From positions 27,714,001 through 27,778,000 of the forward strand of contig OX597827.1 in the NCBI GenBank assembly GCA_951406725.2: DNA of 64,000 bases, read 5' to 3'. The notes under the pieces are model-generated. The model saw only the letters and a program-made list of their open reading frames with translations. It did no database searches and was not told where the DNA came from. Positions 4,201 through 61,548 of this stretch are shown in pieces. The translations under genes were made by a program, and so were the position numbers. The first letter of the stretch is position 1. Every line of letters begins with the position of its first letter. This DNA is from Octopus vulgaris. Lineage: Eukaryota.

Positions 4201-4886
4201 AATTTTGTTTGTATGAGTTGTCTGTGAGGTTGTGTGATATTGGTTCGGGGGAACGGTGGTATTATTGCCTCCGATTGTTGTGTGTGTGTGGGAATCTATG
4301 GTTGTTTTCGTTTGTGGTGTGTGTAAAATATTCGTATGTGATATATTTTTGTTTCGAATTGCTTGTATGTGGGATGTTGCTTGACTTAGTGGGGTTTTTT
4401 TTGCGTTTGTCTTGTGTTCGGTGGAGACTAGTAATTATGGTGCATGGGGTAGTAGCGACTTGTGTGTGGTGTAGTTATTATTCTAGTGTTATTTTGTGCT
4501 GTTATGTGGTGGTTGGGTCTGGTATTAGGATGTTGTTGGTGTGTTCTGTTCTTGGTGTAATCTATTTCATAGACGCGTTGTCTGTCAGCTTGTTCCCTGT
4601 TAAGTCTTGCGTGGTTCAAAAATGTTGGTTGTGGGTGATTTCTGTTTCTAGTGTATGCAGGATAGTTGGGGGTGGTTTGTGGGTTGTTCGGTTTTTCTTT
4701 TTTATTTTTTGTAATTTTCTTAAGAAAGGGATTTATGTCACTGTATAAAAGAAATTTTATAACATTCTTCTGACATAATGACTCAAATATATTTTTTAAC
4801 CTTTTAAAACAAGCCTTCTGTAGTTTTTTCACTTTTTACTATTTTCTATATATTCAACCACGTGCTTTTACACACCAACTTTCTCA

Positions 4887-4926
<40 letters not shown>

Positions 4927-11828: not shown

Positions 11829-12677
11829 ACACCACCTAACACAACCACACGGAACGTTTCGGGCCTCGTTTAAACGCGTTGCGTCATAGACTAACTTCCC
11901 GTTAATTTCGCAGTTGAAATCACGCCGAGAGATGACTTTCCTTTTCATCTTGGGTGTAGTGGGGTGCGATAAAAAGAAATATCATTGGTAAATTAGGGTA
12001 GGAGATGAGTTAGGGTCCATAGAAAAATGCTTGGCCTTTTACAAATGTTAGACATCTTTTATTAAATTAAAAACTAATCAATATTGTGATTAACATTTAA
12101 TCACATTAATTTTCCCTTATAATTATTAAAATTTATCTCTTTCACAATCGCGAACATTATAATTAAACTGGGAAAAAAACCACACACACACACACAAAAA
12201 AAAATGACAGAATAGAAACATAAATATATATCAACAGTTAGTCAGCAGAGTGGCTATCGTTTGGAATCAGACTTTGTGCTTCATACTGGAACAGCAACGA
12301 ATAAGTGGGGGTGGGGCATCCGAAAAAGAAAAGGATAATAAAGGAAAGTAAATAACCTGTGATAACCTCGATAACCTATCGATTTATTTTCTATAAGATT
12401 AGTTCGACGGGACAACAACGTGTCCCACCGTCCGTTCAATTATGGCCGCTGAATGATGTGGTTGGGGCTTACTCGATAAAACAAACCCAGTATTAATTAC
12501 ATCCTGCCGCTGCTGCCAGTCATCTCAACGAATTGTATTTACTCTGAATACAATGCTTTAAAGAATCATTCAATTCTCATCGATTTCTGTTCACATATTT
12601 ATATATATACGTATTTTTTTCTTTGTTTCAGGAACGATCTTAGATGTCGACATTATATTATATTTTTGTTGTTCCAA

Positions 12678-13300
12678 GGCGGCCACCTGGGGGAATCGTT
12701 ACCGTGCCGGATAAAATGCTAAGCTACATTTTGACTATCATTATGTTCTGAGTTCAAATTAAGTCGACGGGACCACTTTGCTTTTTATCCTTTCGCGTTC
12801 GGTAAAATAAGTAACAGTTGATCCCTGAGGTCGATGTGATCGTCTTAAACCCTCCCTTAAATTGCAGGCCTTGTGCCAAAAATTGAAGCCAGTATCATTA
12901 TCATTGTTGTAAGGCGGCGAGCTGGCAGAATTGTTAGCACGCTGGATGAAATGCTCAGTGGTATTTCGCCCATCGCTACATTCTGAGTTCAAATTCCGCC
13001 GAGGTTGGCTTTGCCTTTCATCTTTTCGGGGTCGATAAATTAAGTACCAGTTTTGTATTGAGGTCGATCTAATCGAGTGGACCCCTCAACCAAAATTTCA
13101 GGCCTTGTGCCCTATAATAGAAAGAGTAAAATGCTATGTAGCATTTCGTCCGTCTTTACGTTCTGAGTTCAAATTCCGTCAAAGTCCACTTTGTCATCCA
13201 TCATTTCTGAGTCGATAAAATAAGTAAAAATTGAGCACTGGACTCGATGTGAACGACTTAACCAATCCTCAAAATTGCTGGCCTTGAACTACAATTTGAA
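12678..13300 (+). mobile_element. Cluster of three SINE family B copies (about 12678-12893, 12912-13123, 13126-13300)
   Basis: ggcggcgagctggcagaa head, ttctgagttcaaattcc box B, tttcatcctttcggggtcgataaattaagtaccag body. Confidence 0.8.
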
Positions 13301-13369
13301 GTTATTGTTGATATTGTTGTTGATGGAACCTGTTGATATTTTCCACAGCATTTTTCTTCGAGTTTCCCA

Positions 13370-13695
13370 TACTTCTAGAGTAATATTTAATGGTGGCGGG
13401 AGCAAATATTAACCAAACGAAGGTGATGGGTTTGCAAATCCATACTTGCAGTGTCAGTTCCTACAACCAACCAGTGATACAGGGATGCTGGACGGACAGA
13501 CCAGTTAACTCGCTTAGATTTATGGTCTGGTTCGATCCAGACCTTCTGATAAATGGTTTCAGGGACGAAGTTATAAAAAAAGTACAGTATGTCACCTCAC
13601 CACAAATTGGCAGAGTGAAATTTAGAACAGAAGTAATGGACGTGAACATAGCTTCTTCTATATATTGCTTTCAAATTTTGGTCACAAGCCCAGCA
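13370..13695 (+). mobile_element. Old diverged Tx1-group ORF2 fragment
   Basis: VAGANINQTKVMGL...CWTDRPVNSLRFMVWFDPDL aligns by eye with VTGAKINREKSVGL...RWTDGPVELLGVWFGPDL of the LINE at about 23410-23570. Confidence 0.65.
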
Positions 13696-13699
13696 ATTA

Positions 13700-13853
13700 C
13701 GGTGGAGGGAGGCTAGTCGATTACATCGATGCCAGGGTTCAACTGGTACTTATTTTATCGACCCCGAAACGATGAAATGGACAATCGACCAAGCAGAGTT
13801 TGAACTCAGAATGTTAAAACTGGGTAAATGTTGCCAAGCATTTTGCCTGGCAT
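13700..13853 (-). mobile_element. SINE family B
   Basis: Reverse complement of the family B body (ggtacttattttatcgacccc...tttgaactcagaa). Confidence 0.7.
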
Positions 13854-14760
13854 CACAGTCCTTGAACATCTCGAGGCTGGTGATTTCGTGTGGCTGTTCG
13901 AGTTATATTTTTAGCTTCTATTTCTAGCATTTGCATGTGCTATTTGACACCCTTATTTATGTATTTGCCTTTTTGGTTTTTCATTGCTGTGGCCACCTAT
14001 ATTATAATGTAGTTAATATATCATAATATATTAATTTATCTTTATAGTATATATTTGTATAAAACTCACAGAATGAAGTATTTTGTTAAAATCCTAAAAT
14101 TTTCTCCGGATTAAAGAGATAACTTGCTTCCCGTTTGCTCATGAGAGGGGGAAAGCGTTGAAGAGCGAGCGCTAAAATTCAAAATGATTCAATCGTATAT
14201 AAAAATACAAATATATGTTGTACATAAACATAATAAATGCACAAGCAAGCAAGAAACATACACAGAAGGTCGCCAAATCCTCATCAGTTATCGGCCAAAG
14301 GGTCAAACGCAAATTCGTGCCTTAACGGTAAAAACGATAATCTCCCTCTGGTAGCGCCGCCAGGAATTGACGAGCCAAAAAACAAAACAGAAAATGAACA
14401 AACAGACAAGAAATAAACTAGTATACGATACAGGAAGTTAACATACGAATGTGGAATAAATATAATTCAAGATATGAGAATTAGTGGACAGACAAGGGAC
14501 AGAGACGAAAACAAAGAAGACGGCTGTGCGCATACAAACGAACTGAAATAAATAAACAAACAAAACAAAGCTTTAAGGCCAGACAGGAAAATAGTCGAGT
14601 GAGTTGACAAACAAAAGAAAGTGGTATTCAACACATATGGGAAGATTTATATATATTACTTAATGGCAGTTTGATTCGCTTCTACGCGCCTGATGAGTTA
14701 CGTTCGGTTAACGAGCCACCGATGCTTCAAGTTGCATGGAGCTGAATCAAACTATTATTT

Positions 14761-16716: not shown

Positions 16717-17181
16717 CATATAAGTTATATACATATAAATTAGTTATAAAAATTCACTACAACCTAGGCACATCAACGCGTATACATGCTTTATGTATAG
16801 AACGTATGTTTTTCTATGTGTGAGTTCGAGAACGACTTTGCGTGTTCGTGAATTTATATTTACATTTTAACTCTGAAAGAAACAAAACCTGAAAAAAAGA
16901 AAACAAAAGGAAAAAAACTCATCTCGTCTAAGTACATTTTTTGAGCAAGTAACAAACATCGTTCTAAGTGGAACCAACAGCAACACCAGCAGCAGCAGTT
17001 GGAGCAACAGTAGCAGACAGCAGTGATCTTTTAGCCTCTACAATCTTTGTTTTCGCAACACTATTGAATTAAAGACAATCGTATTCTATTTTAGATCCTC
17101 GTTTGATATAAGGAAGAAGCTTGTTTTCTTTGACATCATAATATCAAGATATTTATAGATTGATGTTTATTTAAGCTCTGC

Positions 17182-17331
<150 letters not shown>

Positions 17332-18532
17332 GGCGGTGAACAGGTGTGGTCGCCGTTTGTGAGGCACGCTTTCCCACAGCTCGTCTCCATGACCGAACTG
17401 CAATCGTGGATCAAAAAGAGGCCGAGGAAGGGCGAATGGCACAGCGAGTGTCGCGTTGCTCTCAAGCAACTCTGCCGTCCTGGGTCAACCTTGAGTGACT
17501 TCAACACAACCAAAGCATTCTATAGAGGATTAGTGGAGGGAAGGTACGACGACAAGCTCGGGGCGAACCTGGACGTCGACGAGGAATACCTGACCCGCCT
17601 GTTCAGGACGACTTTCCGGCCAGGGCCTATGGACAGCTTCCAGAGATCCCTGGCCTGGCAGTGCTACCGAGAAGCGCTACCCGTTTGGGATAAGCTCTAC
17701 AGACACGGCTCGAGAAACACGGGGCCGACCTTCCCGAGATGCGGTCAGAGCGACGAAACCGTTCTGCACGCACTCGTGCAGTGTCCAACAATTTCCGACC
17801 TGTTGGCTTATGTCGAACAACTGCTGTCACGTGTGGGACGAGTCGGTTTATCAGCTGAGTCTATCGTCAATATTGTCACGCGAAGGAAGAGCTATTTTCA
17901 TAATCCTTGTGGCTATGGCGAAAGAATGTATCTGGTGGACGCGTCTGAAAGGATTGGAGACAAACACTTTCCTCTCTGGTCAACCTCTCATCAACTTCTT
18001 CATGTACCACTTGAAATGGAAAGTGAGAGTAGAGAGGCAAGTTTTGTCTAGCGAACGTTTTTAAAAAAAGATGGGTGAATGTAGCAAGGATGGCACGCAT
18101 GAATGACGAAGCCACCTTGAGCATAATCCTATGAACCCAGAAATTGAAAACAGAGGGTTACCCACTTGCAAACAAATGTGGTAAACATATAACAATATTG
18201 ACCAAGGTTACCGTGGTCTTTTTCGTGGGCTTTTCTTCCCACGGATAAACCTTACTTACTTTCCCCTTTACACCATACATCATAACACTGTGATACACGA
18301 TACCTATTGATCGTTTTTTCCTCTTCTCCTTCTTTTTTCATTTTTCTTTTCTTTTGTTCCTTTTCCCTTTTTTCTTTTTTCTTTTCCTTTTTTTGTTCTT
18401 TTTTTTCCCTTTTACGATCCCTTTTGATCGAAAACCTACGCCACCCCTTTTTTTTTTTCATCCCCCAAAAGAAAAGCTCTACCTTGTAACTTGTCCCATC
18501 TGTGTGCAGCCCTGTGTGGCCAATAAAGAAAC
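17332..18532 (+). mobile_element. 5'-truncated Tx1-group LINE
   Basis: Highly similar to about 23901-25161; ends aataaagaaac followed by ttatctatc repeats. Confidence 0.92.
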
Positions 18533-18602
<70 letters not shown>

Positions 18603-18663
18603 GTCTGTCTGTCTGTCTATCTATCTACCTAGCTAGCTAGCTATCTGTCTGTCTGTCTGTCAG

Positions 18664-18761
<98 letters not shown>

Positions 18762-18762
18762 G

Positions 18763-18823
<61 letters not shown>

Positions 18824-18857
18824 CCTATCTATGTCTGTCTGTCTGTGTCTCAGTGTA

Positions 18858-18901
<44 letters not shown>

Positions 18902-18905
18902 TCTA

Positions 18906-18968
<63 letters not shown>

Positions 18969-19017
18969 GCCTGTCTATCTATCTATCTATCTATATATAT
19001 ATATATCTATCTATCTA
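18533..19017. repeat. Compound (TATC)n/(TGTC)n tract between the two LINE copies
   Basis: Seen directly. Confidence 0.9.
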
Positions 19018-19243
19018 TTATCCCACGATGGACGGACGCTAGTCATATCGGCTCTACGTAAGTTGGCCACTTTTACATGTTTAAAACTCCTTGTTGATAA
19101 ATATTTTGTTTTAATCGTTGTGCAAGTTCATTCACTAAAAAACCTGAGAATTATTCACGTAGAATTCCGCCCCTGTATGGGCGAAATTACCAAAAACTTT
19201 CAAAACTTTCGTTGTTTCTTTTTAGCCATTTTTCATTTTGAAA

Positions 19244-21241
19244 ATGGCAACTAGAAACCACGTGGCTAGCCCGCCAGTCATGCAGAACGGTAGCGAAACA
19301 CTATTGCTACCACTAGCTGCTAAACCTCGCAGCTTGAACACCGCTGTCACCACCAACAACAACAGCAAAACTAACGGCGCAAGACCATTCACCATAGCCG
19401 CGACCGAAAACATTAACTTAGATTTCCCCCCACTCCCTACACCACTTGTCGATGATAAAAGGACGGAGAAAGGGATTTCAAAAACGAATACAGACGAAAA
19501 CATGAATGCCAGCACCACCACCATCACCACCAACAACAACAACAACGAAATGGGCACAAAGCCGCTTACCAAAGACAACACCTCCAACACCAACGCCACT
19601 ACTACGACTTCAACTGCTACAACTAACCCTTCTGCTGCCAACACCGCCAACACCAACACCACTACCACGACTTCAACTGCTACAACTAACCCTTCTGTTG
19701 CTAACACCGCAAAATTTAAAACGAATTTTGCGGATGTGACAAAACAAAAACGAACAATTGTAAAATTCACCACACAGGAAATAAACCGCACAAAAGCACT
19801 CTTCACCAAAGAAGGAGACAAATTGCACCTTCACATTCCACAACACATCGTGGAAAACACAAAAAAAAAATCAATAATTTATAAAGTAATAAACAAGAAA
19901 ACAAGACGAACAGAAAATGCACCGCAGGAAAAAATTGAAAAATGCCTTCGTCCTGCATGGGACTCCAAGGAATATATCAGTTGGGGAAATAAATTTGGTA
20001 CAGTCCAAGTACGTTTCCTCAACGAAAATTTAGCAAAACGTTTTTCCACATTGGAGTTGCATTCGGACGACTTGGTAATGATACCAGTCTATTTAAACAA
20101 GAGAGTCACGAAAGTCCATATAAAAAAGGTACCCCTTGAAGTCGTAACACAATGGTTAGTCTCTGCCATCTGCTTTGAAATGACAGAGACAATGTCAGAG
20201 ACAAACATCCTTGAAATCGCTGTTCTAGGAGAGAAAGACTATGTGGGAAAATCAATCGAATTCCTTCTTCAATTGGATGAAGCAGCAAGAGAGAAGATAC
20301 CCACCACTATAGAACTGCCAGGAGGCTACAAACTCTATGTAGTGGTAGAGGGCAGGCGACCACGCTGCTATTTGTGTGGAAGCGAAACACACTTGAAAAA
20401 GACGTGCCCAACCACTGCACACCAAGAGCAACAACAACAACCACTACCACAACCAAAGCACTCCGGAAAAAAAGCTCTACTACCCACACCACCATCAACA
20501 CAGAAGACGACAAGAGAAGCACACCAAGCTAATCCGTCATCAACCAAAAACCACTCAACACCTGAAAAAATACCAACACCACCAACAACAGCAAGAACCA
20601 AAGGAACAGAAAAACAAAGAAAACACACAAAAACTGATCCCCCATCCCTTATACCGCACTCAACACACACAAACACTCAACAACCAACAATAACGAAAAC
20701 AACAACACAACCACTTACACAGACATACATAGAAGCCCACAACATACCCCTACCTCCTACTGATTCCTCAGAAATTTCGTCGGAAGACGAAACCAGTGAG
20801 GAATGGCAAATAGCTACAAAAAGAAGGAAAATAAAGAGCAGAAACACAACCAAACCAAATGCAAACACGAACAAAGCAGGGGGAAATACATCTCCCGAAG
20901 ACATTTCAAAACCCAACACAAACAACAGCCACACCAACACCACAAAAATATATACAGCAAACATGCTCACAGCTATATACACCAAAAACACAAATTTGAT
21001 GGAATACATCCAATCAAAAACAAACATAACAGAAGATGACATAAAAACAATCACCCATACACAACACCACCAGACCACATCAAAATATTACACATCTCCA
21101 AAAGTCTGCACCACACACTCAAAGGCATTTTCCCCAGTGCGGTTGGTAAATGCCAAAAATATCTCACAAAGAAACTGTACTGGGATCTCCTCGAGGACAA
21201 ACCAAAGGAGGAGAAAGCAAAAACTTTCGAGCAGTAAGTAA
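19244..21241 (+). CDS. LINE ORF1 nucleic-acid-binding protein
   Basis: Open for about 665 codons from the ATG at 19244. [24 protein letters not shown] is a Tx1-type zinc knuckle, flanked by Thr/Asn/Pro-rich disordered regions. The C-terminus may be frameshifted. Confidence 0.8.
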
Positions 21242-21281
21242 CCCTCTGTTCCTTTCACTTGTATTCTAATTCATTAGGATT

Positions 21282-24200
21282 ATGATCAAGATTGGTTGTG
21301 TAAATGCGCGTGGCTTGGGGTCCCTTTGGAAACAAGGGTACCTCTTAAATGACATAAAGTCACATAAGTTAGAAATCATAGCCATAAGTGAGACCAGACT
21401 CCACAAACCGCGGGTCCTAAAGACCATGTTTGGCGGACAGTTCAACATTTATTTTCCCCCTGTCTGCCGAGAATGGGCGGTAGTGGCACCGCGGTACTTT
21501 TTCGCAAGAGTCTGGATCTCAAAGTAAGGACAATATTCGTAGACCCGGAGGGTAGACTGGTCGTCCTGGATGTCGACGGCAGCAATGGGTGCGCTTTTCG
21601 ACTCGTATCAGTCTACGCACCGCCCTTAACAGGTCGGGCGGATTTCTTTCAACGTCTAGAAGTATTCTTGGGAACGTCTCGTCCTTTACTCTTAGTGGGG
21701 GATTGGAATGCTACCTTGGACACGCATGTAGACTACGTGGGTAGAGATAGGAATAGACGGGGATGCAAATGCCTCAGAGACCTGCTCAGACGCTTTCAAC
21801 TGTCTGACAGGTTCCGACTAGACCACCCGAATGCGCCAACGTGGACATGGAGCAACCGCATCGGGTCGTCGAGATCGTATCTAGATAGGATACTCTGTAG
21901 GACAGTAGACAGAGATAGCATAGGATGTCCACAATTCCACATAGTCAGCTACACGGATCACAAACTTGTGACATGTACGCTAGACTTAGGTAAGACACAT
22001 AGGCAGGGTCCCGGATACTGGAAACTAAACGCGTCTTTCCCATCGAGACAGGTTTTCAGAGACCGGATTAGCACACTAGTAAAGAGGGTTTTGACGGGGG
22101 CCATCATCAACAACAAATGGTGGTTTGCCCTCAAGAGAGCAGTAAAAGCTGAAGCGATTAGGTACAGCAAAGCACTAGCCATAGATAGAAATAGAGTAGA
22201 GGGTGAGCTAGTTAAGAAGCTAGAAGAGGCAATTAGAAGCGGCATCGCATCCGACGTTTTGGCGGCGAGGTTTGCCCTCGACCAACACTTCAACGCCAAA
22301 CACGAAGGATGTGCTGTCAGAGCTAGGACGCGTGCTCTAAGGAACGAAGGTGTTGGAGCCGCGAGAGAGGCCCTGGTGGCAGAGGCGCAACAGGGCAACA
22401 AAGCCACCATTCGGTCCCTGGTAGATGAACAGGGGCGCGAATTGCTTGAGCCAAGTAAAATGTGTGAGGCCTTTCAGCAGCATTTTGCCCGACTGTTCGG
22501 GACGAGTGGAGGGCAAGAACGTAGGGTGGACTTCAGTGCCTACCTACATAGCCTACCACGACTCTCGACAAGAAAGGCAGGGTGCTGTGAAGGTGCCATC
22601 ACGGCGGCGGAAGTGCAGGACGCGATGGCAGAATGCTCGAGGGACAAATCACTGGGTTTGGATGGTCTATCCTACGAGCTTTACAATTATATGCCAGACT
22701 TGTTTGGAGATCTCTTGGCGGCGGTGTCCTGCAACTGGCAGAAAAACGGGATCATTCCTGGTTTTGTGAGCCGAGGAGCCGTAACACTGCTGAAGAAAGA
22801 TCTAAACAAGGGAAATGTAATAAATAACTTTAGGCCCATCACTCTGCTTAATGCAGACTTGAAAATTTTGACCAAGGTGCTAGCCAAGAGGTTGGCGCTT
22901 GTCATCGAGAAACTGGTCGACAAGGCGCAAACATGCGCCGTGCCGGGCCGGACCATCCATGACAACCTCCACCTGATGCGCTACATCATAGACAGGGTAG
23001 TTAACGAACCTGGCATGGGTGGGGCGCTGATCAATTTGGCTCAATCGAAAGCTTTCGATAGGGTAGACCATCGATACTTGGAGGCGGTCCTCAGAGCGGC
23101 TGGCTACGGTCCCGTCTTCCGCGGCTGGATAGCCGCTTTATACAGAGGCATCCGTTCGGTAATTCGCGTGAATGGACATCTATCGAGACCCTTCGACATC
23201 GCACGTTCGGTCCGTCAGGGATGCCCCCTCTCGTCGCTTCTATACGTATTGACTCTCGAGCCATTATTGCGGAAGCTGGCAACTTTGAGGGGCATCCCGC
23301 GAGAACTGGGATGCGGGACGAGCGTGTCTGCATACGCGGACGACGTCACCGTCATAGTGTCTAGCCACGAGCACATCGAGCAGGTCGGCAAGACACTGAA
23401 AAACTACGAAGCGGTGACAGGAGCGAAAATCAACCGGGAAAAGTCAGTGGGCTTGCGACTAGGCACCTGGAGAAGCAAGCCCATGCCGTCCATCAGCGCC
23501 TCCGTCGTGGGACGCTGGACCGACGGCCCGGTTGAGTTGCTCGGGGTCTGGTTTGGTCCGGACCTCCAAGTGGAGAAGAACTGGAACGAGATAACGAGTA
23601 GGGTGGTCACTCTCGCCCGGCAATAGGCCGAGAGGAAACTGTCCCTAAAAGGTCGGGCGGAGGTGGCGAACACGTACATCGCGTCCGTCATCTACTACCG
23701 CCTGACCGTCGTACCTTGTCCCGACCCTACCATCACCAAACTAGAACGCATTCTCTTTCGCTTCTTGTGGAAAGGATGCGTCCCGATGGTTAGGCGATCC
23801 ATTTGCTGTCAACACCCGTTAAAAGGAGGACTGGGCATGCCGTGGTTGATGATGCGCAGACACACGCTGAGACTGCGACATCTCAGGCTCTTCGTAGACG
23901 ACGGTGAACAGGTGTGGTCGCCGTTTGTGAGGCACGCTTTCCCGCAGCTCGTCTCCATGACCGAACTGCAGTCGTGGATCAAAAAGAGGCCGAGGAAGGG
24001 CGAATGGCACCGCGAGTGTCGCGTTGCTCTCAAGCAACTCTGCCGTCCTGGGTCGACCTTGAGTGACTTCAACACAACCAAAGCATTCTATAGGGGATTA
24101 GTGGAGGGGAGGTACGACGACGAGCTCGGGGCGAACCTGGACGTCGACGAGGAGTACCTGACCCGCCTGTTCAGGACGACTTTCCGGCCAGGGCCCATGG

Positions 24201-24704
24201 ACAACTTCCAGAGATCCCTGGCCTGGCAGTGCTACCGAGAAGCGCTACCCGTTTGGGATAAGCTCTACAGACACGGGGCCGACCTGCCCGAGATGCGGTC
24301 AGAGCGACGAAACCGTTCTGCACGCACTCGTGCAGTGTCCAACAATTTCCGACCTGTTGGCTTATGTCGAACAACTGCTGTCACGTGTGGGACGAGTCGG
24401 TTTATCAGCTGAGTCTATCGTCAATATTGTCACGCCTCCTTACTTCAAACGGGAAGGAAGAGCTATTTTCATCATCCTTGTGGCTATGACGAAAGAATGT
24501 ATCTGGTGGACGCGTCTGAAAGGATTGGAGACAAACACTTACCTCTCTGGTCAATCTCACATCAACTACTTCAAGTACCACTTGAAAAGGAAAGTGAGAG
24601 TAGAGAGGCAAGTTTTGTCTAGCGAATGTTTTAAAAAAAGATGGGTGAATGTAGCAAGGATGGCACGTATGAATGACGAAGCCACCTTGAGCATAATCCT
24701 ATGA
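21282..24704 (+). pseudogene. LINE ORF2 (APE endonuclease, reverse transcriptase, CCHC), disrupted
   Basis: NARGL, ISETR, VGDWNA, SYLDR, TDHK (APE); FRPITLLNADLKI, KAFDRV, VRQGCPLS, AYADD (RT). Frameshift near 21455, TAG at 23624-23626, and a 14-nt deletion near 24275. Confidence 0.9.
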
Positions 24705-25446
24705 ACCCAGAAATTGAAAACAGAGGGTTACCCACTTGCAAACAAATGTGATAACATATAACAACATTGACCAAGGTTACCGTGGTCTTTTTCATAGGCT
24801 TTTCTTCCCACGGATAAACCTTACTTGCTTTCCCCTTTGCACCATATATCATAACACTGTGATACACGATCCCTATTGATCGTTTTTTTTCCTCTTCCCC
24901 TTTTTTCCCCTTTTTTCTTCTTTTTTCATTTCACTTTTCTTTTGTTCCTTTTCCTTTTCTTTTTTTTCTTTTTTTTCTTATTCTTTATTTTCTTTATTTT
25001 TTTTGTTCTTTCCTTCCCTTTTACGATCCCTCTTGATCGAAAACCTGCGCCAACCCTTTTTTTTCTTTTGTTTTTTGTTTTTTGTTTCATCCCCCAAAAG
25101 AAAAGCTCTACCTTGTAACTTGTCCCATCTGTGTGCAGCCCTGTGTGGCCAATAAAGAAACTTATCTATCTACCTATCTATGTCTGTCTGTCTGTCTGTC
25201 TGTCTGCCTGTGTCTCAGTCTATCTGTCTGTCTGTCTGTTTGTCTGTCTATCTATCTATCTATCTGTCTAACTGTCTATCTGTCTGTCTATCTTTCTGTC
25301 TGTCTGGCTGTCTATCTTTCTGTCTATCGGTTTGTCTGTCCCCGCTCTCTCCTCGTTGTGTTTGCCAATTTCCCTCTCCACATCACATGTTACTCAATCA
25401 TATACATACATGTGTGCGAGGTGTGTGCTTATATATTAAAATATCG

Positions 25447-29996: not shown

Positions 29997-30479
29997 GTCA
30001 ATAATAAAAGGGCAAAATTAATTAATTATCAATTAATTTTACCAAGTAGTGTTCAGTATGTAAAAAGACCATTAACGGTATATTTAAAACATTATGTTAT
30101 ATACTTAGGCTTCAGTAAAATAATTTACTTTACCACACACCGAACTTTTAGAAATAGCAGCCAAAAAATCTTAGCTATTTCCTCTACTATAAGAAAAGTC
30201 TCCCAGACAATGTATACTCAAAAATAATTCACGCAGGTATAGAGGGAAAAATAACGAAAGATCACACGTACATCGATTACTTGAGAACGCCGTTTCTGGA
30301 TTAGTTGGATATAGAGATCAACATTTCCGTCATCAGCCCAAGATTTCTTTAGGTTTGGATTTGAGAGCACTAAAAATCGACCATACCCGTCTGATATGAG
30401 TAATCCCAGACAAACCATCTTCGACCGCTAGTACTAATGAATTCAAAAAATAGAAATCTTGGGCTGATGACGGAAATGT
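29997..30479. mobile_element. Inverted Penelope-like pLTR remnant with right arm truncated
   Basis: 28-bp inverted repeat at 30321-30348 and 30452-30479 overlapping a hammerhead core; follows (TA)n. Confidence 0.55.
30280..30342 (-). ncRNA. Minimal type I hammerhead motif
   Basis: Minus strand: cttggg-CUGAUGA-cgga...tcca-GAAAC ggc GUU-ctcaag. Stem I is 6 bp, the first stem II pair is mismatched and the GUU triplet is suboptimal. Confidence 0.6.
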
Positions 30480-30509
30480 GCAAGTTGTTTGCAAGACATC
30501 TAAGACCTT

Positions 30510-30657
30510 GTGGTAGGTAACCACTGACAAACCGGATAGACGGTTAGGCATCTTGGAAAGACAAGAGGACTGCTCGGAAAGACCAGCGGACAATAGGAAA
30601 GACTATCGACACCAGGAAAGACTGGCGGAGGCTGCGGACTTACGATCCTCGCCTCTG
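30510..30657 (+). promoter_or_regulatory. Structured 5' UTR: array of five G-GA(A/T)AGA-C hairpins with flanking stems
   Basis: Loops start at 30535, 30556, 30577, 30597 and 30616, each with a different self-complementary stem. Confidence 0.7.
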
Positions 30658-30750
30658 TATTTTATTGTAACAGACATAACAGGAAATGACAGCCCCACGA
30701 TTGACCGAGAGGGGGGAGTCTAGAATCAATCAAACCCAGTCAGCACGGAA

Positions 30751-33700: not shown

Positions 33701-34037
33701 TATTTTGATGTGGTGTGAAAGAAAGAAAGTTGTAAATATAGTCGAGCTAACGGTTCCTCACGAAGATAATATGGACGCCGCTCGAGCTCGAAAATTAAAC
33801 CGTTATGAAAAGCTCCTCGAGGAATGTGAAGACGCGGGCTGGAAAGCGGAACATTTTCCTATCGAAGTCGGATGTAGAGGGTTTGTAGGACACAGCGTGA
33901 GACGACTGTTGTTATCGTTAGGCCTAACTCATCGTAAAGTCAATACCACCATGACTGATATCCAATCTACAGTGGAGAAGGCTAGCCACTGGATTTGGTT
34001 AAAAAGAGACGATGAGCGATGGCTAGAAGTATATTGA
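30751..34037 (+). pseudogene. Zinc finger-RT-CCHC-RLE polyprotein, disrupted
   Basis: ORF pieces 30751..31419, 31637..32947 and 32913..34037 are separated by stops or frameshifts; the catalytic PD appears as PH. Confidence 0.85.
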
Positions 34038-34229
34038 GTTCTTCATAACCAGCTGATCTAGCAAGCGGGGCTTCATATCAGTGAGGGGGGCCGGTGCGTA
34101 CTGATGCCGTCGAGAGGTAGGCCCCGAAACGGCGCGCATTCTCTCCTGATGACCCCATACACTTGCTAGCTTCCGATATACGGAGCTTTTAACCGGTAGC
34201 ACTTGCATGTGCAAGTTGTTTGCAAGACA

Positions 34230-34334
<105 letters not shown>

Positions 34335-44152: not shown

Positions 44153-45704
44153 AAATATATGTGTGTGTGTGTGTTTATACATATATGGACACAGATACAT
44201 ATACGTGTGTATATATATATATATATAGAAAATAGTAAAAAGTGAAAAAACTACAGAAGGCTTGTTTTAAAAGGTTAGAAAATATATATTTAAGTCAATA
44301 TGTCTGAAGAATATTATAAATTTTTTTCTTACAATGACATAGTTTAGAAGAAAGCCCGGTTTCGCGTTTAGCTTTTCAAATTTCTTATGTCGTTATGTTT
44401 ATGTTGAGCAGAGTTATCGTTATGTTTATGTTGAAGAGAGTTCTAAATAACGGGAGGTAATGAGTGATTTCTTCCGATGTAAGGGAGATAATCGCTTAAA
44501 ATTTTTTGCCTTTCCCTTGGTGTGAATGGCTAAGTCTGGGCTTGTACTTTTCAATGAAGAATGTTTCCTTGTTTAGTCTAATTTGTGTTGATGATCCGAT
44601 AGCACATTGGTAAAATGGAAAGATTAAAAATTGTGGTAGTAGTTGTTTTGCGCATTTCTCAATGTGCTCACTAAAAGGTATCATTCTGTATTCTGGCATG
44701 CAATCTATTGTCGATGCAGTGTGCATCTACATCTGAGTGATAGTCCCGTGGATCCCACGTAATCTTGGTGGCAGCCCGAGCATTTTATGACATAAATTAT
44801 GTTTTCAAAGGCACAAGTAAAGTTAGATTTGATCTTGAATTTCTGTCCCTCTTTGAAGAGGAATTCTGATCCTTCTAGCAGGTTTGGACATGTTGCACAG
44901 TTCGATCTACAACTTTTTTAACTTTTGCATCCGTAATTTCAGAAAACAATTTTGCCTTTGTGGGAATCTTTTTTAAGTGATTTAGGTTGTTTGTAGCTTT
45001 TAATGATTTGGTGTATGTTTAGAATTTCCTTTAATTTGGGGTCCTTATGAAGTATTGGTAAATTCTGGGTGATGATTCCCCCGACCCAATATCACACAAC
45101 CTCACAGACAACTCATACAAACAAAATTACACCCAACATTTTTTAGCCAGGGACCAGAGACACCAGGACTCAAGCTGGAACCTAGTAATAAGGAAAAACC
45201 GAAGATAATCAATCTTTCAACCAAACCTCTTTCTAACATTAAAATTGACATCCTCTCAAAAGGGCTCAAATTTACACCAACTCCATGCAGAGCCAACCTA
45301 AATGAAATCAAGGATAATATAACAGAATTTTGCAGAAAATTAAGACTAGCAGAAGCATCAACCAGTTTCAATACTGAAGATGAATAACTAGTCAAGAACA
45401 AAAGTGAACACATCCCACACAGAGGAAGAAATAAAGTTCTTGACGAATTCTGTAACCACATTGAGAACTTTCCCTACCATACTATACATAAACAGAAAGT
45501 TAACTCAAATTTTAACACTACACAATGGAAGGAACTGATAGAACTTCAAAATGATGAGGATATAACCATTAAGGAAGCAGACAAGGGAAATGCAGTTGTA
45601 ATAATGGATACATCATACTATAGAAATCTTGCAATTTTCTTGGTAAAATCATTAAAAGCTACAAACAACCTAAATCACTTAAAAAGATTCTCACAAAGGC
45701 AAAA

Positions 45705-46184
45705 TTGTTTTCTGAAATTACGGATGCAAAAGTTAAAAAATGTGGTAGATCGAACTGTGCAACATGTCCAAACCTGCTAGAAGGAACAGAATTCCTCTTC
45801 AAAGAGGGACAGCAATTCAAGATCAAATCTAACTTTACTTGTGCCTCTGAAAACATAATTTATGTCATAAAATGCTCCGGCTGCCACCAAGACTACATGG
45901 GATCCACGGGACTATCACTCAGACGTAGATGCACACTGCATCGACAACAGATTGCATTCCCAGAATACAGAATGATACCTTTGAGTGAGCACATTGAGAA
46001 ATGCGCAAAGCAACTACTACCACAATTTTTAATCTTTCCATTTTACCAATGTGCTATCGGATCATCAACACAAATTAGACTAAACACGGAAACATTCTTC
46101 ATTGAAAAGTACAAGCCCAGACTTAACCATTCCAATATACTGATACAGAGAAATTCACACCAAGGGAAAGGCAAAAAATTTTAA
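45705..46184 (+). pseudogene. Penelope GIY-YIG endonuclease domain with Cys-rich linker (Neptune-like)
   Basis: KCGRSNCATC...NIIYVIKCSGCHQDYMGST..LRRRCTLHR..LSEHI..RLNTETFFIEKYKPRLN. The domain is open but has no RT or real start. Confidence 0.85.
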
Positions 46185-46293
46185 GCGATTATCTCCCTTA
46201 CACCGGAAGAAATCACTCATTACCTCCCCTTATTTAGAACTCTTTTCAACATAAACATAACGATAACTCTGCTCAACATAAACATAACAACGT

Positions 46294-46332
46294 AAGAAAT
46301 TTGAAAAGTTAAACGCGAAACCGGTCTTTCTT
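46294..46332 (+). ncRNA. Minimal hammerhead motif with U3-A8 core
   Basis: aagaaa-t-UUGAAAA-g ttaaacg c-GAAAC cg GUC-tttctt; palindromic accggt stem III. The sister copy at about 44348-44386 (minus) has GGC at the cleavage site. Confidence 0.55.
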
Positions 46333-47459
46333 CTAAACTATGTCATTGTAAGAAAAAAATTTATAATATTCTTCAGACATATTGACTTAAATATATATTT
46401 TCTAACCTTTTAAAACAAGCCTTCTGTAGTTTTTTCACTATTTACTATTTTTTATATATTCAACCACGTCCTTTCACAAACCAACTTTCTGATTTATATA
46501 TATATATATATATAGATTTATATATTTAGTTTGTGCTTTAAATTCATGGTGAGGGAACCGCTTGTTTGATTAGATATGCAAATGTTAATACTTGCAGTTT
46601 TGATGTTTGTAGTTTTATTGTCTTTTAAGCAGTTTAATTAGCTTTAAACATAGCAAGGTTTATAATAATAGTTAATTACAAGTACTTTTATTAGTTGCTA
46701 TTTAATAAAATTTAAGTGTATATTAGTCGCTGGTAATTAAATATTATAACTTGTAGTGGAAATATATTAATGAGTATGAAGTGTTCTTTTATTAACTTTT
46801 GAATGATAAAATAATGTATATCACTCATAAAAATATTAGTTAAATTAATTTCAGTCTTTTTTTGTTTTGGAGAAATTTTATAAGGCTTGAACTTCCATTT
46901 TAGTAGTATCTATGGAAGACCGGTGGGATTATTATTTATATGGACTTAAAGATGGGTGGTAACTTAGCATATAATTTAGTTATTGCCGTTTACTATTAAT
47001 ATCGATACAATGGACATTGGTTTATATGTCTCTTTCTTGTAGTTCTATTAAAGTTAGTGTTTAATCCTGTCTATAAATTGATTGAATGAATTAATGTGGC
47101 ATCCAATCTTTTATTTTTATATTACATTATGGAAGACGGTAGGGATTATAATTTTTGTATGACTTAATAGAGTTGTCACTGTTTAGTTACGTATTTAGGA
47201 GTGATTGTAATTTACTTATGGAATTTATTTAGCGATAGGGTTGTACATAGGATAAATGTGTTTGAAAGTTGTGGTTTCTTTAGTTTGTTCCCGATCAACA
47301 CTAATTTTAGTGCTGTTGACACCGCCGGATTGAATGGTACTGCTCAGGTTTCGAAACCATAATGATATCCGAGGGGCAGCTGATGATGGAGGTATGTTGG
47401 CTTGTTGGTATGGCTGTGGAATAGTATTATAACACATCCTGTTGATACATACATGCATG

Positions 47460-50998: not shown

Positions 50999-51560
50999 AG
51001 AATTCACGAAAAATCAAATGACGAAGACAGGTGGTATAGAAAACAAACAGATGTATTAGTATAAGATATATATATATATATATTTCTTTACGTATGTATT
51101 TATATTTATATCGAAAACACGACTATATTCTGGTTGCATCTTTTCTATCAGAGATTATTTTCCTTCGTTTTTGCACGCCAGCACCTTATTGTTCGCTTCG
51201 AAGAATAAAACACCCACATTTTTCATTATCGACATTTCCTGTCTTCAGGAACTTTATTGTTCCAAACGATTAGCAGTTCTAATATAAAGACACGAAAACA
51301 AAAATAGAGTTGATAAAAAGAAATATCAAATATAATCATAGTCGTGTTTTTTCTATCATATTTAAAACAAAATCTGCTTCATATACACCCTCCTACCCTC
51401 ACGCATATACCTGCATACACACACACACATACACACATACAGCATATATACTTCATTTTTGTATCTAGTTTGCAAGATTCTTTATGTGAATGCATGCATT
51501 GAAACAAAGTTTGTTGTGTTTAGGGAGAGTTATTATACCATTATTATTAACACACGTACT

Positions 51561-51965
51561 AAAGCGGCGAGCTGGCAGAAACGTTAGCACGCCGGGCGAA
51601 ATGCTTAGCGGTATTAAGTCTGCCGTTACGTTCTGAGTTCAAATTCCGCTGAGGTCGACTTTGCCGTTCATCCTTTCGGGGTCGATAAATTAAGTACCAG
51701 TTACGCACTGGGGTCGATATAATCGACTTCATCCGTTTGTCTATCCTTGCTTGTCCCCTCTATGTTTAGCCCATTGTGGACAATAAAGAAATAAGAAACG
51801 TTAGCACGCCGGGTGAAATGGTTAGAGATATTAAGTCTGTCTTTAGGTTATGAGTTCAAATTTCGGAAACGATAAATTAAGTGCCATTTTTTTACTGGGG
51901 TAGATCTAATTGACTGGCCTTCTCCCCAAAAGTTTCGGGGCTTGTGCCTAGAGTAGAAAAGATTA
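51561..51965 (+). mobile_element. Dimeric SINE family B; first monomer ends in a Tx1-like tail
   Basis: Monomer 1 is 51561-51794 ending ...tgtggacaataaagaaa; monomer 2 is 51795-51965 ending cttgtgcctagagtagaaaag. Confidence 0.85.
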
Positions 51966-52153
51966 TCATCACACACTCTAGTTTAATTCCAGTCCTTTAT
52001 TGTAAATCAACTAATTAAATATCCAACTAACTAATTGATTAGTCTGTTGCATTTTTAATTAATTGACTAACAACAAGGGAATGTAATTGAAACTGCGATT
52101 GTTAATAATATTGCCATAATGATACTCCCTAGACACAATACATATACACACGC

Positions 52154-52239
<86 letters not shown>

Positions 52240-53030
52240 ATAATATAATATATAACATATAATATATATATATATATACATATGTATTTGTATATACATA
52301 TTATATATGTATATGTATCTGCATACATATATAATTATTGCAGCTCACAGCTCTCAGCTGGTTCGAATTTCACGCTCCCGAGCTTCAGACTACATACAAA
52401 TTACTGTTATAATTATAAAGCCCTCTCGCTCCTTGGCATTGTGTGCAGTTCTGAGCTTCTCGCTTGTATCTAGGTTAACTATAAACATACACATACAAAC
52501 ACGCACAAACACACTCATACATGTTACTGGCGCTCTAGCAAGGCTTTGATTTAACGCTCCACAAACCACCGAATACATCTATAGATTTATGGTAAGACAG
52601 TGTCAGAGGCAAATTTTAATACCTTGATGTTGTTGAGACATAAAGGGGTATCAGCTGAACTATTTTCAGTCTTTTGCTTGAATTTCGTTGGCAACAACTG
52701 ACTACCCTCTGTAGCCACCCAATTCTGTAGATATTTATCTAATGTTTTGTTTAAGAAACAAATGTAAGCTTCTTGCTTTATACACATGATATTCATGGTG
52801 AAGAAAGACAGCGCTCAATCAGATTTATTTCAATTTTGTTTTACGATTACATCAATAAGATCACAAAGTTTTTATATATGAAAAAGACGTGTCTACATCC
52901 ATGCAGTCCCTGACTACAATTTATAGGTATATTTAGGCATTTATTGAAAGTATCATTCCATTTTTTGTTAAAAAACAGCAAAGTTGTAATTAGACGAAGT
53001 TTTTGTTGCTAATATTTCTAATATGACATC

Positions 53031-53245
53031 AAGGGAGCGAGCTGGAAGAATCGTCAGCACTCCCGGCAAGCTGCTTGAAGGAATGTCGTCCTTCTTTACG
53101 ATCCGAGTTCCAATTCTGTCGAGATCGACTGTACCTTTTATACTTTTGGGGTCAATAAAATAAGTACTACTTGAGCACTTGGGTTGATGTAATCGACTTA
53201 TTCCCTCACCGGATATTGCTGTCCCTATACAAAAATTTGAGACTA
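53031..53245 (+). mobile_element. SINE family B, decayed
   Basis: gagcgagctggaagaatcgtcagcac...ggggtcaataaaataagtac. Confidence 0.65.
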
Positions 53246-53576
53246 ATATATCTAGTAAGTTTGACCGATGACGTATAGTCTCAAACTGACTCGATACCTT
53301 CCTTTTAAAAGAGATTAAAAAGTAATTTGCATGTTAATATCTACACTTGAAATAGCCTTAGAATTAAAATATTAGTGCTGATACTATTTATGATGTGTAG
53401 AGAAGAATGGAATGACAGAGAAACTTGTATGTTAAAAGCAGAAGGCTTCACAAAGAACTTCGGTGGATCATTAGAAACAGTATTTCGATTGATTTATTCT
53501 CCTCAATATCAAATATCCCGGACCTTCTAAGCTAAGCCCAAAATATTTGTTCTGATATAGAAATCCACAGCCAAAG

Positions 53577-55100
53577 TGCGAAGTACATACAAAAGTATCA
53601 GACTTTATTTTTCCCCGCCAAAACTAATGCTGTATGAGCAAACTCTTTTTGGGTGGGAGGTGACGCTATCCTTCCAACGCATTTTTGTGCCGGTAAGCCG
53701 CACCAGTTCCCGGCTGTTACGCCTGGAGTACAGACGTGTAGAACTCGCTCAACTGATTTTCGTTTTCACATCAAGCTGAAACTACAAACCCATTTCTTAT
53801 CACCGGTAATGTTGGTCTTCATGAAGTTTGGGTCATTGTTTGCACAGACCAGCATGTCCTGAGGTATTTCCATGCAGAGCTGCTTCCGCTGCTCCAGTAC
53901 TTTGTGGAGGACTTTTGCCGACACACACCGCATGCACAAATCCTCCGTTAAAACGGAATACACTAATCCCGTGCTTATTCTCACTTTGTAAGCAATTTCT
54001 TAGATTATCACACGACGGTCACCCATGACTATTCACCGAACCTTTTCAACAGGCTCCTCGTTTTGGCTTGTGGACGATCTACCAGAAAGTTCTTCGCTCT
54101 CCACTTAGTTGTGGCCGTGTTTGGAGCGGTTGTACCAATGACGTTAGCACGCCGGGTGAAATGCTTAGCGGTATTTCGTCTGCCGTTACGTTCTGAGTTC
54201 AAGTTCTGCCGAGGTCGACTTTGTCTTTCATCCTTTCAGGGTCGATAAATTGAATACCAGTTACGCAATGGGGTCGATATAATCGACTTAATCCGTCTGT
54301 CTGTCCTTGTTTGTCCTCCCTGTGTTTAGCCCCTTGTGGGTAGTTAAAAAATAGGCATTTCGTTTGTCTTTACGTTCTGAGTTCAAATTCCGCTGAGGTC
54401 GACTTTGTCTTTCATCCTTTCGGGGTCGATAAATTAAGGACCAGTTACGCACTGGGGTCGATATAATCGACTTAATTCCTTTGTCTGTCCTCGTTTGTCC
54501 CCTCTGTGTTTAGCCCCTTGTGGGTAGTAAAGAAATAGGTATTTCGTTTGTCTTTACGTTCTCAGTTCAAATTCCGCTGAGGTCGACTTTGCCTTTCATC
54601 CTTTCGGGGTCGATAAATTAAGGACCAGTTACGCACTGGGGTCGATATAATCGACTTAATTCCTTTGTCTGTCCTCGTTTGTCCCCTCTGTGTTTAGCCC
54701 CTTGTGGATAGTAAAGAAATAGGTATTAAGTCTGTCTTTAGGTTATGAGTTCAAATTTCAGGATCGATAAATTAAGTGCCAGTTGCATACTGGGGTAGAT
54801 CTAATTTGAATTTTGCCCACGACATCATCGCCAAAGGCCTTTTGAATTTTCTAGATGTCTTCAGCTTGAATATCACCAAGCTTTTAGCAAAATGTGTTTC
54901 AATATCTCAGCCTGTTCGGTGGAAACGAAAATCCTACAAGTGCGCGCTACACGACTCTACTCTTGGCGTAACAACCGATGACTGCAGCAGCTTACAAGCA
55001 TCAGGAAGGATGTCGTTACCACCTGCCCAAAGAATTTTGTCCACGCGGCATTAATATAAGCGGAAAGAATGAAGTCGGATACTTTTGAACACACCTCGTA
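53577..55100 (-). mobile_element. Internally deleted mariner transposon interrupted by a SINE array
   Basis: TIRs tgcgaagtacatacaaaagtatcagact and agtcggatacttttgaacacacctcgta; peptide LCMRCVSAKVLHK...FMKTNITGDKKWV. Confidence 0.75.
54141..54806 (+). repeat. Tandem array of about four SINE family B monomers, period about 180 bp
   Basis: Unit junction ataggtatt... recurs near 54352, 54535 and 54719. Confidence 0.85.
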
Positions 55101-61120: not shown

Positions 61121-61548
61121 AAAGCGGCAAGCTAGCAGAAACGTTAGCATGCCGGGAGAAATGCTTAGGGGTATTTCGTCTGTCTTTACGTTTTCAAATT
61201 CCACCGAGGTTGGCTATGCCTTTCATCCTTTCGAGGTCAATAAATTAAATACCAGTTACGTACTGCGGTCGATCGAATCGATTGCCCCCTTCCCAAAAAT
61301 TTTGGGTCTTGTGTCTCGAGTGGAAAAGGATAAAGGCGGCGAACTAGCAAACATTAGCATGCTGGGCGAAATGTTTAGCGGTATTTCGTCTGTCTTTACG
61401 TTCTGAGTTCAAATTCTGCCGAGGTCAAATTTGTCTTTCATCTTTTCGGGGTCGATAAATTATGTACCAGTTACGTACTGTGGTCGATCTGATCGACTGC
61501 CCTTATCCCCAAAATTTCGGGCCTTGTGCCTAGAATAGAAAAGAATAT
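61121..61548 (+). mobile_element. Two tandem SINE family B copies with the non-Tx1 tail
   Basis: Heads at about 61121 and 61332. Confidence 0.8.

What the first reader, a model, noticed from the sequence alone, without database searches (positions are those of the whole stretch)
51745..51794. SINE monomer ends in a copy of the Tx1 LINE 3' terminus (candidate SINE-Tx1 partnership)
Seen: SINE 51750-51791 cttgtcccctctatgtttagcccattgtggacaataaagaaa against LINE 25119-25160 (also 18490-18531) cttgtcccatctgtgtgcagccctgtgtggccaataaagaaa gives 35 of 42 identical, ungapped, counted by hand. Both end at the same AATAAAGAAA. The same tail ends three monomers in the 54141-54806 array. A small gcc...ggc hairpin precedes AATAAA in the LINE. 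Known: shared 3' tails mark stringent SINE-LINE pairs, mostly for CR1, L2 and RTE, while mammalian L1 partners rely on poly(A). Inference: this tRNA SINE was mobilised by, or captured its tail from, a Tx1-group element with sequence-specific 3' recognition.
Basis: partly seen in the sequence, partly recalled or inferred. Interest (0 to 1): 0.75.

Follow-up and report, generated by a model that had tools for sequence, protein, structure and literature searches.

The report
Octopus SINE with L1/Tx1-type LINE tail
Some units of a very abundant short repeat in this likely octopus genome carry a 42-base piece that matches the very end of an L1/Tx1-type retrotransposon (35 of 42 bases), which likely let the repeat borrow that element's copying enzyme, a pairing rarely reported for this group, although in this window the piece always sits inside chains of repeats and never at their end.

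Summary
The match is real: 35 of 42 bases ungapped, and the best background position in the window reaches 23 of 42. It survives removal of the A-rich end (25 of 32; background 20) and holds for the majority letters in four public runs. The LINE has an L1-type endonuclease/RT ORF2, a zinc-knuckle ORF1 and (TATC)n flanks, so it is L1/Tx1-group; Tx1 proper was not tested on a tree. The host is an octopus (inferred from homologues). Corrections: (1) this 'tail A' is a minority tail; 8 of 12 tailed monomers in the window end otherwise; (2) all 4 tail-A monomers are followed at once by another monomer, so tail A is never an insertion end here; (3) the two LINE copies share a flank motif and the two SINE loci a deletion, so neither pair is independent; (4) the LINE hairpin is unstable. 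Best reading (0.5): tail exchange from an L1/Tx1-group LINE that then likely mobilised the subfamily. Passive carriage (0.25) and capture in the reverse direction (0.12) remain open. No animal L1/Tx1 tail pair turned up in the papers searched; Repbase, Dfam and SINEBase could not be checked.

The parts
51561..51793 (+). SINE monomer with full head, body and tail A
   Evidence: A-box-like 51573-51583 and B-box-like 51635-51647 read from the sequence; no tRNA hit by ARAGORN or Rfam
51750..51791 (+). LINE-matching part of tail A (gapped extension back to 51740)
   Evidence: 35 of 42
51769..51781 (+). 4-pair hairpin with a 5-base loop; this copy has two private changes (51773, 51780), one breaking the stem
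51794..51966 (+). second monomer of the dimer: lacks the first 17 bases, has an internal deletion, ends in tail B; the actual 3' end of this insertion
   Evidence: weak candidate target duplication 51543-51555 / 51962-51974, 11 of 13, reached by 3.2% of random 30-mers
54141..54806 (+). tandem SINE array, 184-base period, three tail-A monomers (tails 54310-54351, 54494-54535, 54678-54719) and a cut-off last monomer
   Evidence: the last monomer is 77 of 85 identical to 51827-51911 and shares its deletion
19023..25160 (+). apparently full-length L1/Tx1-group LINE, ORF2 broken
19244..21241 (+). ORF1 (665 aa) with a C-X2-C-X4-H-X4-C zinc knuckle
   Evidence: translation; no Pfam hit
21283..24704 (+). 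ORF2 region: AP-type endonuclease, RT and C-terminal Cys-rich domain; one in-frame stop (23624-23626) and frameshifts
   Evidence: PF03372 E 1.4e-12, PF00078 E 8.4e-30; best solved relative human LINE-1 ORF2p E 2.2e-40 against R2 E 2e-18; zf-RVT in the sister copy E 1.7e-4, below the curated cut-off
25087..25162 (+). 76-base terminal block after the pyrimidine tract, identical in both LINE copies; holds the SINE-matching 42 bases
   Evidence: chance of no difference at the copies' 3.5% divergence is 0.065, so not significant
17332..18531 (+). 5'-truncated second LINE copy, 96.5% identical over aligned bases
17181..17331 (+). CT(TATC)37 left of the truncated copy; the same CT(TATC)n start follows both LINE ends, so it may be target sequence and the LINE may end at 25160/18531
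18532..19022 (+). (TATC/TGTC)n between the two LINE copies; shares an interruption motif with the flank 25161-25340
12675..13312 (+). three related SINE monomers with tail B or an older B-like tail (comparison set)
61121..61548 (+). SINE dimer, both monomers with tail B (comparison set)
13655..13855 (-). older SINE monomer with decayed B-like tail (comparison set)
53030..53250 (+). older SINE monomer with decayed B-like tail (comparison set)

Best explanation
A subfamily of this abundant, likely octopus SINE carries a tail that shares its last 42-52 bases with the 3' end of an L1/Tx1-group LINE; it likely took that tail from an ancestor or sister of the LINE in this window by template switching or recombination, and the tail likely let that LINE's reverse transcriptase copy the subfamily. 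Shown: the match, its place at the LINE terminus, its presence as majority sequence in runs from three coded organisms, the swap point near 51729, and that tail-A monomers here lie inside dimers and arrays. Inferred: the direction (LINE to SINE), mobilisation by that LINE, and that tail-A monomers were later built into compound elements that end in tail B.
For: Statistics. The match stops at the LINE's last base before the microsatellite. Head and body are shared by all monomers and only the part after 51728 is swapped (loose ends at 51728-51729), the usual pattern of SINE tail exchange (PMC4824008, PMC11481361, passages). Length and identity fall inside the range accepted for bivalve SINE/LINE partners, 35-61 bases at 72-95%. 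Tail A is amplified: its depth is 14-17% of body depth in 4 of 4 runs (summed contig depth, not copy number). Tail-A monomers are more alike (89-97%) than tail-B (84-85%) or older monomers (69-73%), as expected for a late-acquired tail. Depth at 51798 is only 19-43% of that at 51783, and the variant tied to the second junction here is 15-19% at 51783, which leaves room for copies that end after tail A (weak hint). AATAAA is natural at a Pol II LINE end and is the majority in the SINE (74-85% at 51781, 81-85% at 51783).
Against: 0 of 4 tail-A monomers here are terminal or followed by (TATC)n, the LINE's apparent target. No loose end at 51791-51795 is among the 24 shown (2113 not shown, so this says little). 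The 7 differences are more than the two LINE copies show in that block (0 of 76), so this exact LINE family is not shown to be the donor. The LINE hairpin is not stable and in the SINE register has a C-C mismatch. The tail-A monomers are locally related, which inflates their likeness. Tail A also faintly resembles tail B, so it could have arisen within the SINE family.
Confidence: 0.5

Rival explanations
1. The piece was captured once from the LINE but is a passenger: it became an internal module of a compound SINE that is copied by whichever LINE recognises tail B, and the arrays grew by slippage or unequal crossing-over.
For: 4 of 4 tail-A monomers are internal. The 51561-51966 dimer ends in tail B with a weak candidate target duplication. 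The junction into base 51 of the next monomer recurs in the runs as a loose-end consensus at 51610 (X5, X12). Bases 51733-51748 resemble a worn (ATCT/GTCT)n repeat, as if a very short LINE insertion in its microsatellite target had been captured (seen by eye, post hoc, untested).
Against: The depth drop after the tail in 4 of 4 runs looks larger than the two known junctions explain (rough). The SINE hairpin is kept, with a G-U variant at 51781.
Confidence: 0.25
2. Reverse direction: tail A evolved inside the SINE family from a tail-B-like ancestor, and the LINE acquired it as a new 3' end when its RT began on SINE RNA and switched to LINE RNA.
For: Tails A and B share a hairpin with the same loop at the same place. 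The SINE is far more abundant than the LINE. The LINE's hairpin looks like the weaker version.
Against: Tail A versus B similarity is weak (p 0.005-0.64 over 8 comparisons). The shared part lies inside a 76-base LINE terminal block. This route still needs the LINE's RT to start on tail-A RNA.
Confidence: 0.12
3. A target-specific Tx1 relative inserted short 5'-truncated pieces into SINE copies, so the 'tail' is an insertion and not a tail.
For: Tx1 families that target other transposons are known (PMC4494074). The piece lies between SINE sequences in 4 of 4 cases.
Against: The SINE sequence does not resume where it broke off: it stops near base 170 and restarts at base 18 or 51 of a new monomer. 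The left junction is the same in 4 of 4 copies, which is not what independent truncations give.
Confidence: 0.06
4. Chance or convergence on a poly(A)-signal region.
For: 10 of the 42 bases are the A-rich end, and the comparison was found by eye.
Against: 25 of 32 without that end against a background maximum of 20; 0 of 150 shuffles as high; 0 matches in 100 window shuffles at up to 3 mismatches, though that pattern was built from these copies.
Confidence: 0.02

Closest known systems
L1-clade SINE/LINE tail pairs: maize ZmSINE2/ZmSINE3 with LINE1-1_ZM, Chlamydomonas SINEX-3_CR with L1-1_CR (Ohshima 2012 PMC3472496, part 1 of 3 read; Ohshima 2013 PMC3747384, passages and Table 1)
   Same: tRNA-type SINE sharing about 45-80 terminal bases with an L1-group LINE; hairpin near the end.
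   Different: Those are plants and algae, and were the only 3 L1-clade pairs among 58; Table 1 lists no Tx1 partner and no animal L1-clade partner. Their hairpins are stable (-11 to -18 kcal/mol); the LINE hairpin here is not. Their tails are terminal.
Crocodilian SINEU with Tx1-Mar (Kojima 2015 PMC4494074, parts 2-4 of 5 read)
   Same: SINE thought to be mobilised by Tx1; tandem insertions; Tx1 relatives that target microsatellites ((TC)n, (TTC)n, (TTCC)n, (TTTC)n).
   Different: SINEU has snRNA heads and a poly(A) tail, and no LINE sharing its 3' end was found; the link rests on shared targets. Here the link is a shared 3' sequence and a shared target is not shown.
Octopus OK/OR1/OR2 tRNA-derived SINEs (Ohshima and Okada 1994; paper not seen, known only from citations, which name OR1 or OR2 as CORE-SINEs)
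   Same: Host group, abundance, A/B-box-like head; the body looks CORE-like (recalled, not tested).
Bivalve conserved-domain SINEs with several LINE partners (PMC11481361 and PMC4824008, passages)
   Same: One SINE body with exchangeable LINE-derived tails of 35-61 bases at 72-95% identity; tandem-like arrangement.
   Different: Partners are CR1, CR1-Zenon, L2 and Nimb; 'Tx1' does not occur in either main text.

Membership tests
Stringent SINE/LINE pair | SINE shares significant sequence with the extreme 3' end of a LINE | tested here: met
   majority letters
Stringent SINE/LINE pair | the shared tail is the 3' end of independent SINE insertions | tested here: inconclusive
   0 of 4 in the window, from two related loci; depth pattern hints at other endings; no genome held
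Stringent SINE/LINE pair | conserved 3' stem-loop in both partners | tested here: inconclusive
   4-pair stem in the SINE majority with both-side changes between tail types; only 3 pairs and no stability in the LINE
Stringent SINE/LINE pair | shared target or target-duplication signature and overlapping ages | not testable with these tools
   needs the genome; no tail-A copy in (TATC)n in the window
Stringent SINE/LINE pair | trans-mobilisation depends on the tail | not testable with these tools
   bench assay
L1/Tx1-group LINE | two ORFs; ORF2 with N-terminal AP-type endonuclease, RT and C-terminal Cys-rich domain, closest to L1 | tested here: met
Tx1 clade proper | RT groups with named Tx1 families, not with L1 | not testable with these tools
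   no named Tx1 reference among the hits or the cluster members
Tx1 clade proper | target-specific insertion | tested here: inconclusive
   2 of 2 copies in (TATC)n, but they share a flank motif and may come from one site; among AP-endonuclease LINEs only Tx1 and R1 hold site-specific members (PMC13295347 passage)
Tx1 clade proper | ORF1 with CCHC zinc knuckle (feature recalled, not from a call) | tested here: met
   motif visible; Pfam did not call it
tRNA-derived SINE | 60% or more identity to a tRNA over 60 bases (SINEBase definition), with A and B boxes | tested here: inconclusive
   A- and B-box-like motifs present; no tRNA hit from ARAGORN or Rfam; no direct alignment to tRNAs was made
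tRNA-derived SINE | short, non-coding, interspersed, high copy | tested here: met
   13 monomer segments at 6 places in 64 kb; 72,723-397,777 contigs laid per run
Octopus OK/OR1/OR2 (CORE-SINE) | sequence identity to the published families and CORE domain | not testable with these tools
   SINEBase supplements not available; none found in the supplements searched

The most novel reading that the evidence does not exclude
All tails of the dominant octopus SINE family (A, B and the older B-like tail) are successive captures from one radiating, microsatellite-targeting Tx1 lineage whose RT reads a 4-pair hairpin with a CUUGU loop. The stem flipped from GGC/GCC to CCC/GGG as partners changed. Tx1, not RTE or CR1, would then have driven the octopus SINE expansion, and animals would have kept stringent RNA recognition in the L1 group.
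Probability: 0.12. Interest if true: 0.75.

Novelty: new variant of a known kind. Interest (0 to 1): 0.5.

Why it matters
SINEs make up 11.6% of the O. vulgaris genome (PMC13282606), and no partner LINE for them appeared in the papers read. The 2012-2013 survey found only 3 SINEs with L1-clade tails among 58 pairs, none in animals, and left open whether stringent 3' recognition was ancestral in the L1 group. A Tx1-group LINE sharing its 3' end with an animal SINE would be a test case for that question, with a short defined element to mutate. The value drops if tail A proves to be only an internal passenger.

Tried and rejected
No whole genome is held. Pattern scans for more tail copies: metagenome contigs gave 1 hit, a chance match in a bacterial gene (L001); viral contigs 0; prokaryote genomes 0; a scan with alignment A1 could not run. 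No RNA holder is on record; X12 is only guessed to be RNA, so nothing is said on expression. Tail B has no non-SINE match in the window, and the SINE does not match the second LINE at 30470-34240 (scores 19 and 20). The rest of the L1/Tx1 element has no SINE match (score 20) and no snRNA or tRNA head. Naming the clade through homologues failed: named hits were only 'hypothetical' or 'uncharacterized'; the Atlas gave generic endonuclease/RT clusters. Target duplications around SINE loci were weak, in AT-rich flanks (0.4-3.2% for four loci, 89% for the array, 41% if tail A is taken as the end), and are not relied on. 'TX1' in PMC4176376 is a mutant name and irrelevant. Literature searches that found no SINE-Tx1 shared tail and no partner for octopus SINEs; open-licence papers only. 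Repbase, Dfam, SINEBase and Ohshima and Okada 1994 were not seen and may already hold this pair; the supplements of PMC3531059 and file 1 of PMC4824008 could not be read and may bear on the family's name. Rejected: that the two LINE copies or the two SINE loci count as independent events.

Full report
Host. No genome is held. The LINE ORF2's closest named relatives are an Octopus bimaculoides fragment (87% identity over 6% of the query) and an Argonauta hians protein (53% over 68%), so the host is inferred to be an octopus.

The observation. The SINE stretch 51750-51791 matches both LINE ends at 35 of 42 positions without gaps. Over all window positions on both strands, background reaches at most 23 of 42, while the four SINE tails give 35, 33, 33 and 29. 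Without the last 10 A-rich bases the figures are 25, 24, 24 and 22 of 32 against a background maximum of 20. Aligned to the whole LINE, 3 of 4 tail-A monomers hit its last 42 bases with 0 of 150 shuffles as high, the fourth had 14 of 150, and 0 of 9 other monomer segments were significant. Two gaps extend the match about 10 bases upstream.

The LINE. It runs from about 19023 to 25160, with an intact 665-aa ORF1 that carries a CCHC knuckle and a broken ORF2 with AP-type endonuclease and RT. Its best solved relative is human L1 ORF2p. A 5'-truncated copy (17332-18531) is 96.5% identical and identical over the last 76 bases (chance 0.065). Both lie in (TATC)n. CT(TATC)n follows both copies and also precedes the truncated one, which suggests the element ends at AAAGAAA, exactly where the SINE match ends. 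The microsatellites after the two copies share an interruption motif, so the copies may come from one site by a long duplication, a tandem duplication or 3' read-through, and are not independent insertions. L1/Tx1-group membership is met. Tx1 proper is likely from the knuckle (feature recalled) and the microsatellite site (compare Kibi, Koshi and crocodilian families, PMC4494074) but was not tested on a tree.

The SINE. Thirteen monomer segments share head and body; 12 have a tail. Four have tail A, four tail B and four an older B-like tail; the switch lies after 51728. A- and B-box-like motifs are present, but neither ARAGORN nor Rfam sees a tRNA. All 4 tail-A monomers run through TA into another monomer that lacks its first 17 or 50 bases. 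The insertion at 51561-51966 is a dimer that ends in tail B. Its second monomer and the last monomer of the 54141-54806 array share a deletion and 77 of 85 bases, so the two loci are kin.

Population view. Contigs of four runs (three coded organisms; 4 of the 24 listed) were laid on 51556-51975. Majority letters differ from this copy at 51750 (T, 91-96%), 51773 (C, 89-96%) and 51780 (G, 89-98%), and keep the AATAAA form (C at 51781 in 74-85%, A at 51783 in 81-85%). Position 51762 is not among the 40 rows shown (116 not shown); the other three window copies have the LINE's letter there. Majority identity to the LINE is therefore 34 or 35 of 42, so the match is a family trait. Tail-A depth is 14-17% of body depth. 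Depth at 51798 is 19-43% of that at 51783, a drop that looks larger than the second junction explains and hints that some tail-A copies end or continue otherwise. The tool warns that summed contig depth is no copy number, and no loose end at the tail-A terminus is among the 24 shown (2113 not shown). This is a weak hint only.

Hairpin. The LINE's gcc/ggc stem has 3 pairs, and 186 of 200 shuffles fold as well. In the SINE majority the same place forms a 4-pair stem around CUUGU, and tail B has the same loop with an inverted stem. On a loop-anchored alignment of 11 rows (10 distinct), 33 of 40 cells pair and 3 of 4 pairs change on both sides; 0 of 500 shuffles reach the pairing or covariation score, but 93 of 500 reach the count of both-side pairs. 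Caveats: I picked the structure by eye, rows are related, and I left out 2 of the 12 tailed monomers (13655-13855 and 53030-53250), which pair at only 1 of 4 positions each; with them it would be 35 of 48. Overall similarity of tail A to B-type tails is weak (p 0.005-0.64, 8 comparisons), and of the LINE end to B-type tails mixed (0.001, 0.005, 0.24, 0.46), uncorrected for 21 tests.

Mechanism. Shown: shared sequence at the LINE terminus, a modular tail swap, amplification of tail A, internal placement here. Inferred: capture from an L1/Tx1-group LINE by template switch or recombination, then copying by that LINE's RT, then incorporation into dimers and arrays (0.5). Seven differences suggest that the donor was an ancestor or sister of this family. 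Rivals: passenger module copied through tail B (0.25), capture in the reverse direction (0.12), Tx1 insertion into SINEs (0.06), chance (0.02).

Known systems. Ohshima's survey lists 58 pairs, 3 of them L1-clade, all plant or algal (PMC3472496 part 1 of 3; PMC3747384 passages and Table 1). Kojima inferred Tx1 mobilisation of SINEU from shared targets and found no shared 3' end (PMC4494074 parts 2-4 of 5). Bivalve SINEs swap tails among CR1, CR1-Zenon, L2 and Nimb with 35-61-base matches at 72-95% (PMC11481361 passages; PMC4824008 passages; PMC4758252 passages). Tail exchange and LINE-derived internal parts are discussed in PMC5786205 (passages). Octopus repeat surveys report L1-Tx1 and abundant SINEs without pairing them in the parts seen (PMC13282606 part 1 of 3 and supplement search; PMC8967140 passages). 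PMC3531059 (passages), PMC13295347 (passages) and PMC5804259 (listing and supplement search) added definitions or nothing. Ten searches found no report of this pair; Repbase, Dfam, SINEBase and the 1994 octopus SINE paper were not seen.

Verdict. A real SINE-LINE shared tail of an uncommon kind, a new variant of a known kind. Its functional reading depends on one genome-wide count that could not be made here. Interest 0.5.

Noticed in passing
window 30476-34233: A second, unrelated non-LTR element with RT and a C-terminal restriction-like endonuclease region (HERO/NeSL-like by recalled motifs; broken ORFs) is flanked by an exact 27-base direct repeat (30476-30502 and 34207-34233), a likely long target duplication.
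   Followed up: partly
window 17181-25340: Two L1/Tx1 copies head to tail in (TATC/TGTC)n; the flanks after both share an interruption motif reaching at least 50 bases from the end, which implies an unusually long target duplication, a tandem duplication or 3' transduction.
   Followed up: partly
window 12864-12880, 13098-13114, 51935-51951, 54511-54527, 61517-61533: All SINE tail types carry a small hairpin with a CUUGU loop whose stem is inverted between tail A and tail B; the partner of tail B is unknown.
   Followed up: partly
window 12675-13312, 51561-51966, 54141-54806, 61121-61548: This SINE family forms dimers, trimers and a 184-base tandem array; head-to-tail joints after tail B recur in the runs (table 5).
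   Followed up: partly
window 19576-19710: A 63-base tandem duplication inside LINE ORF1, in a Thr/Asn-rich region, keeps the frame.
   Followed up: no
window 44212-46528, 1799-2607, 3688-4253, 4734-4922: Another repeat family; 44221-45009 and 45646-46459 form an inverted pair about 94% alike, resembling a DNA transposon or foldback element.
   Followed up: no
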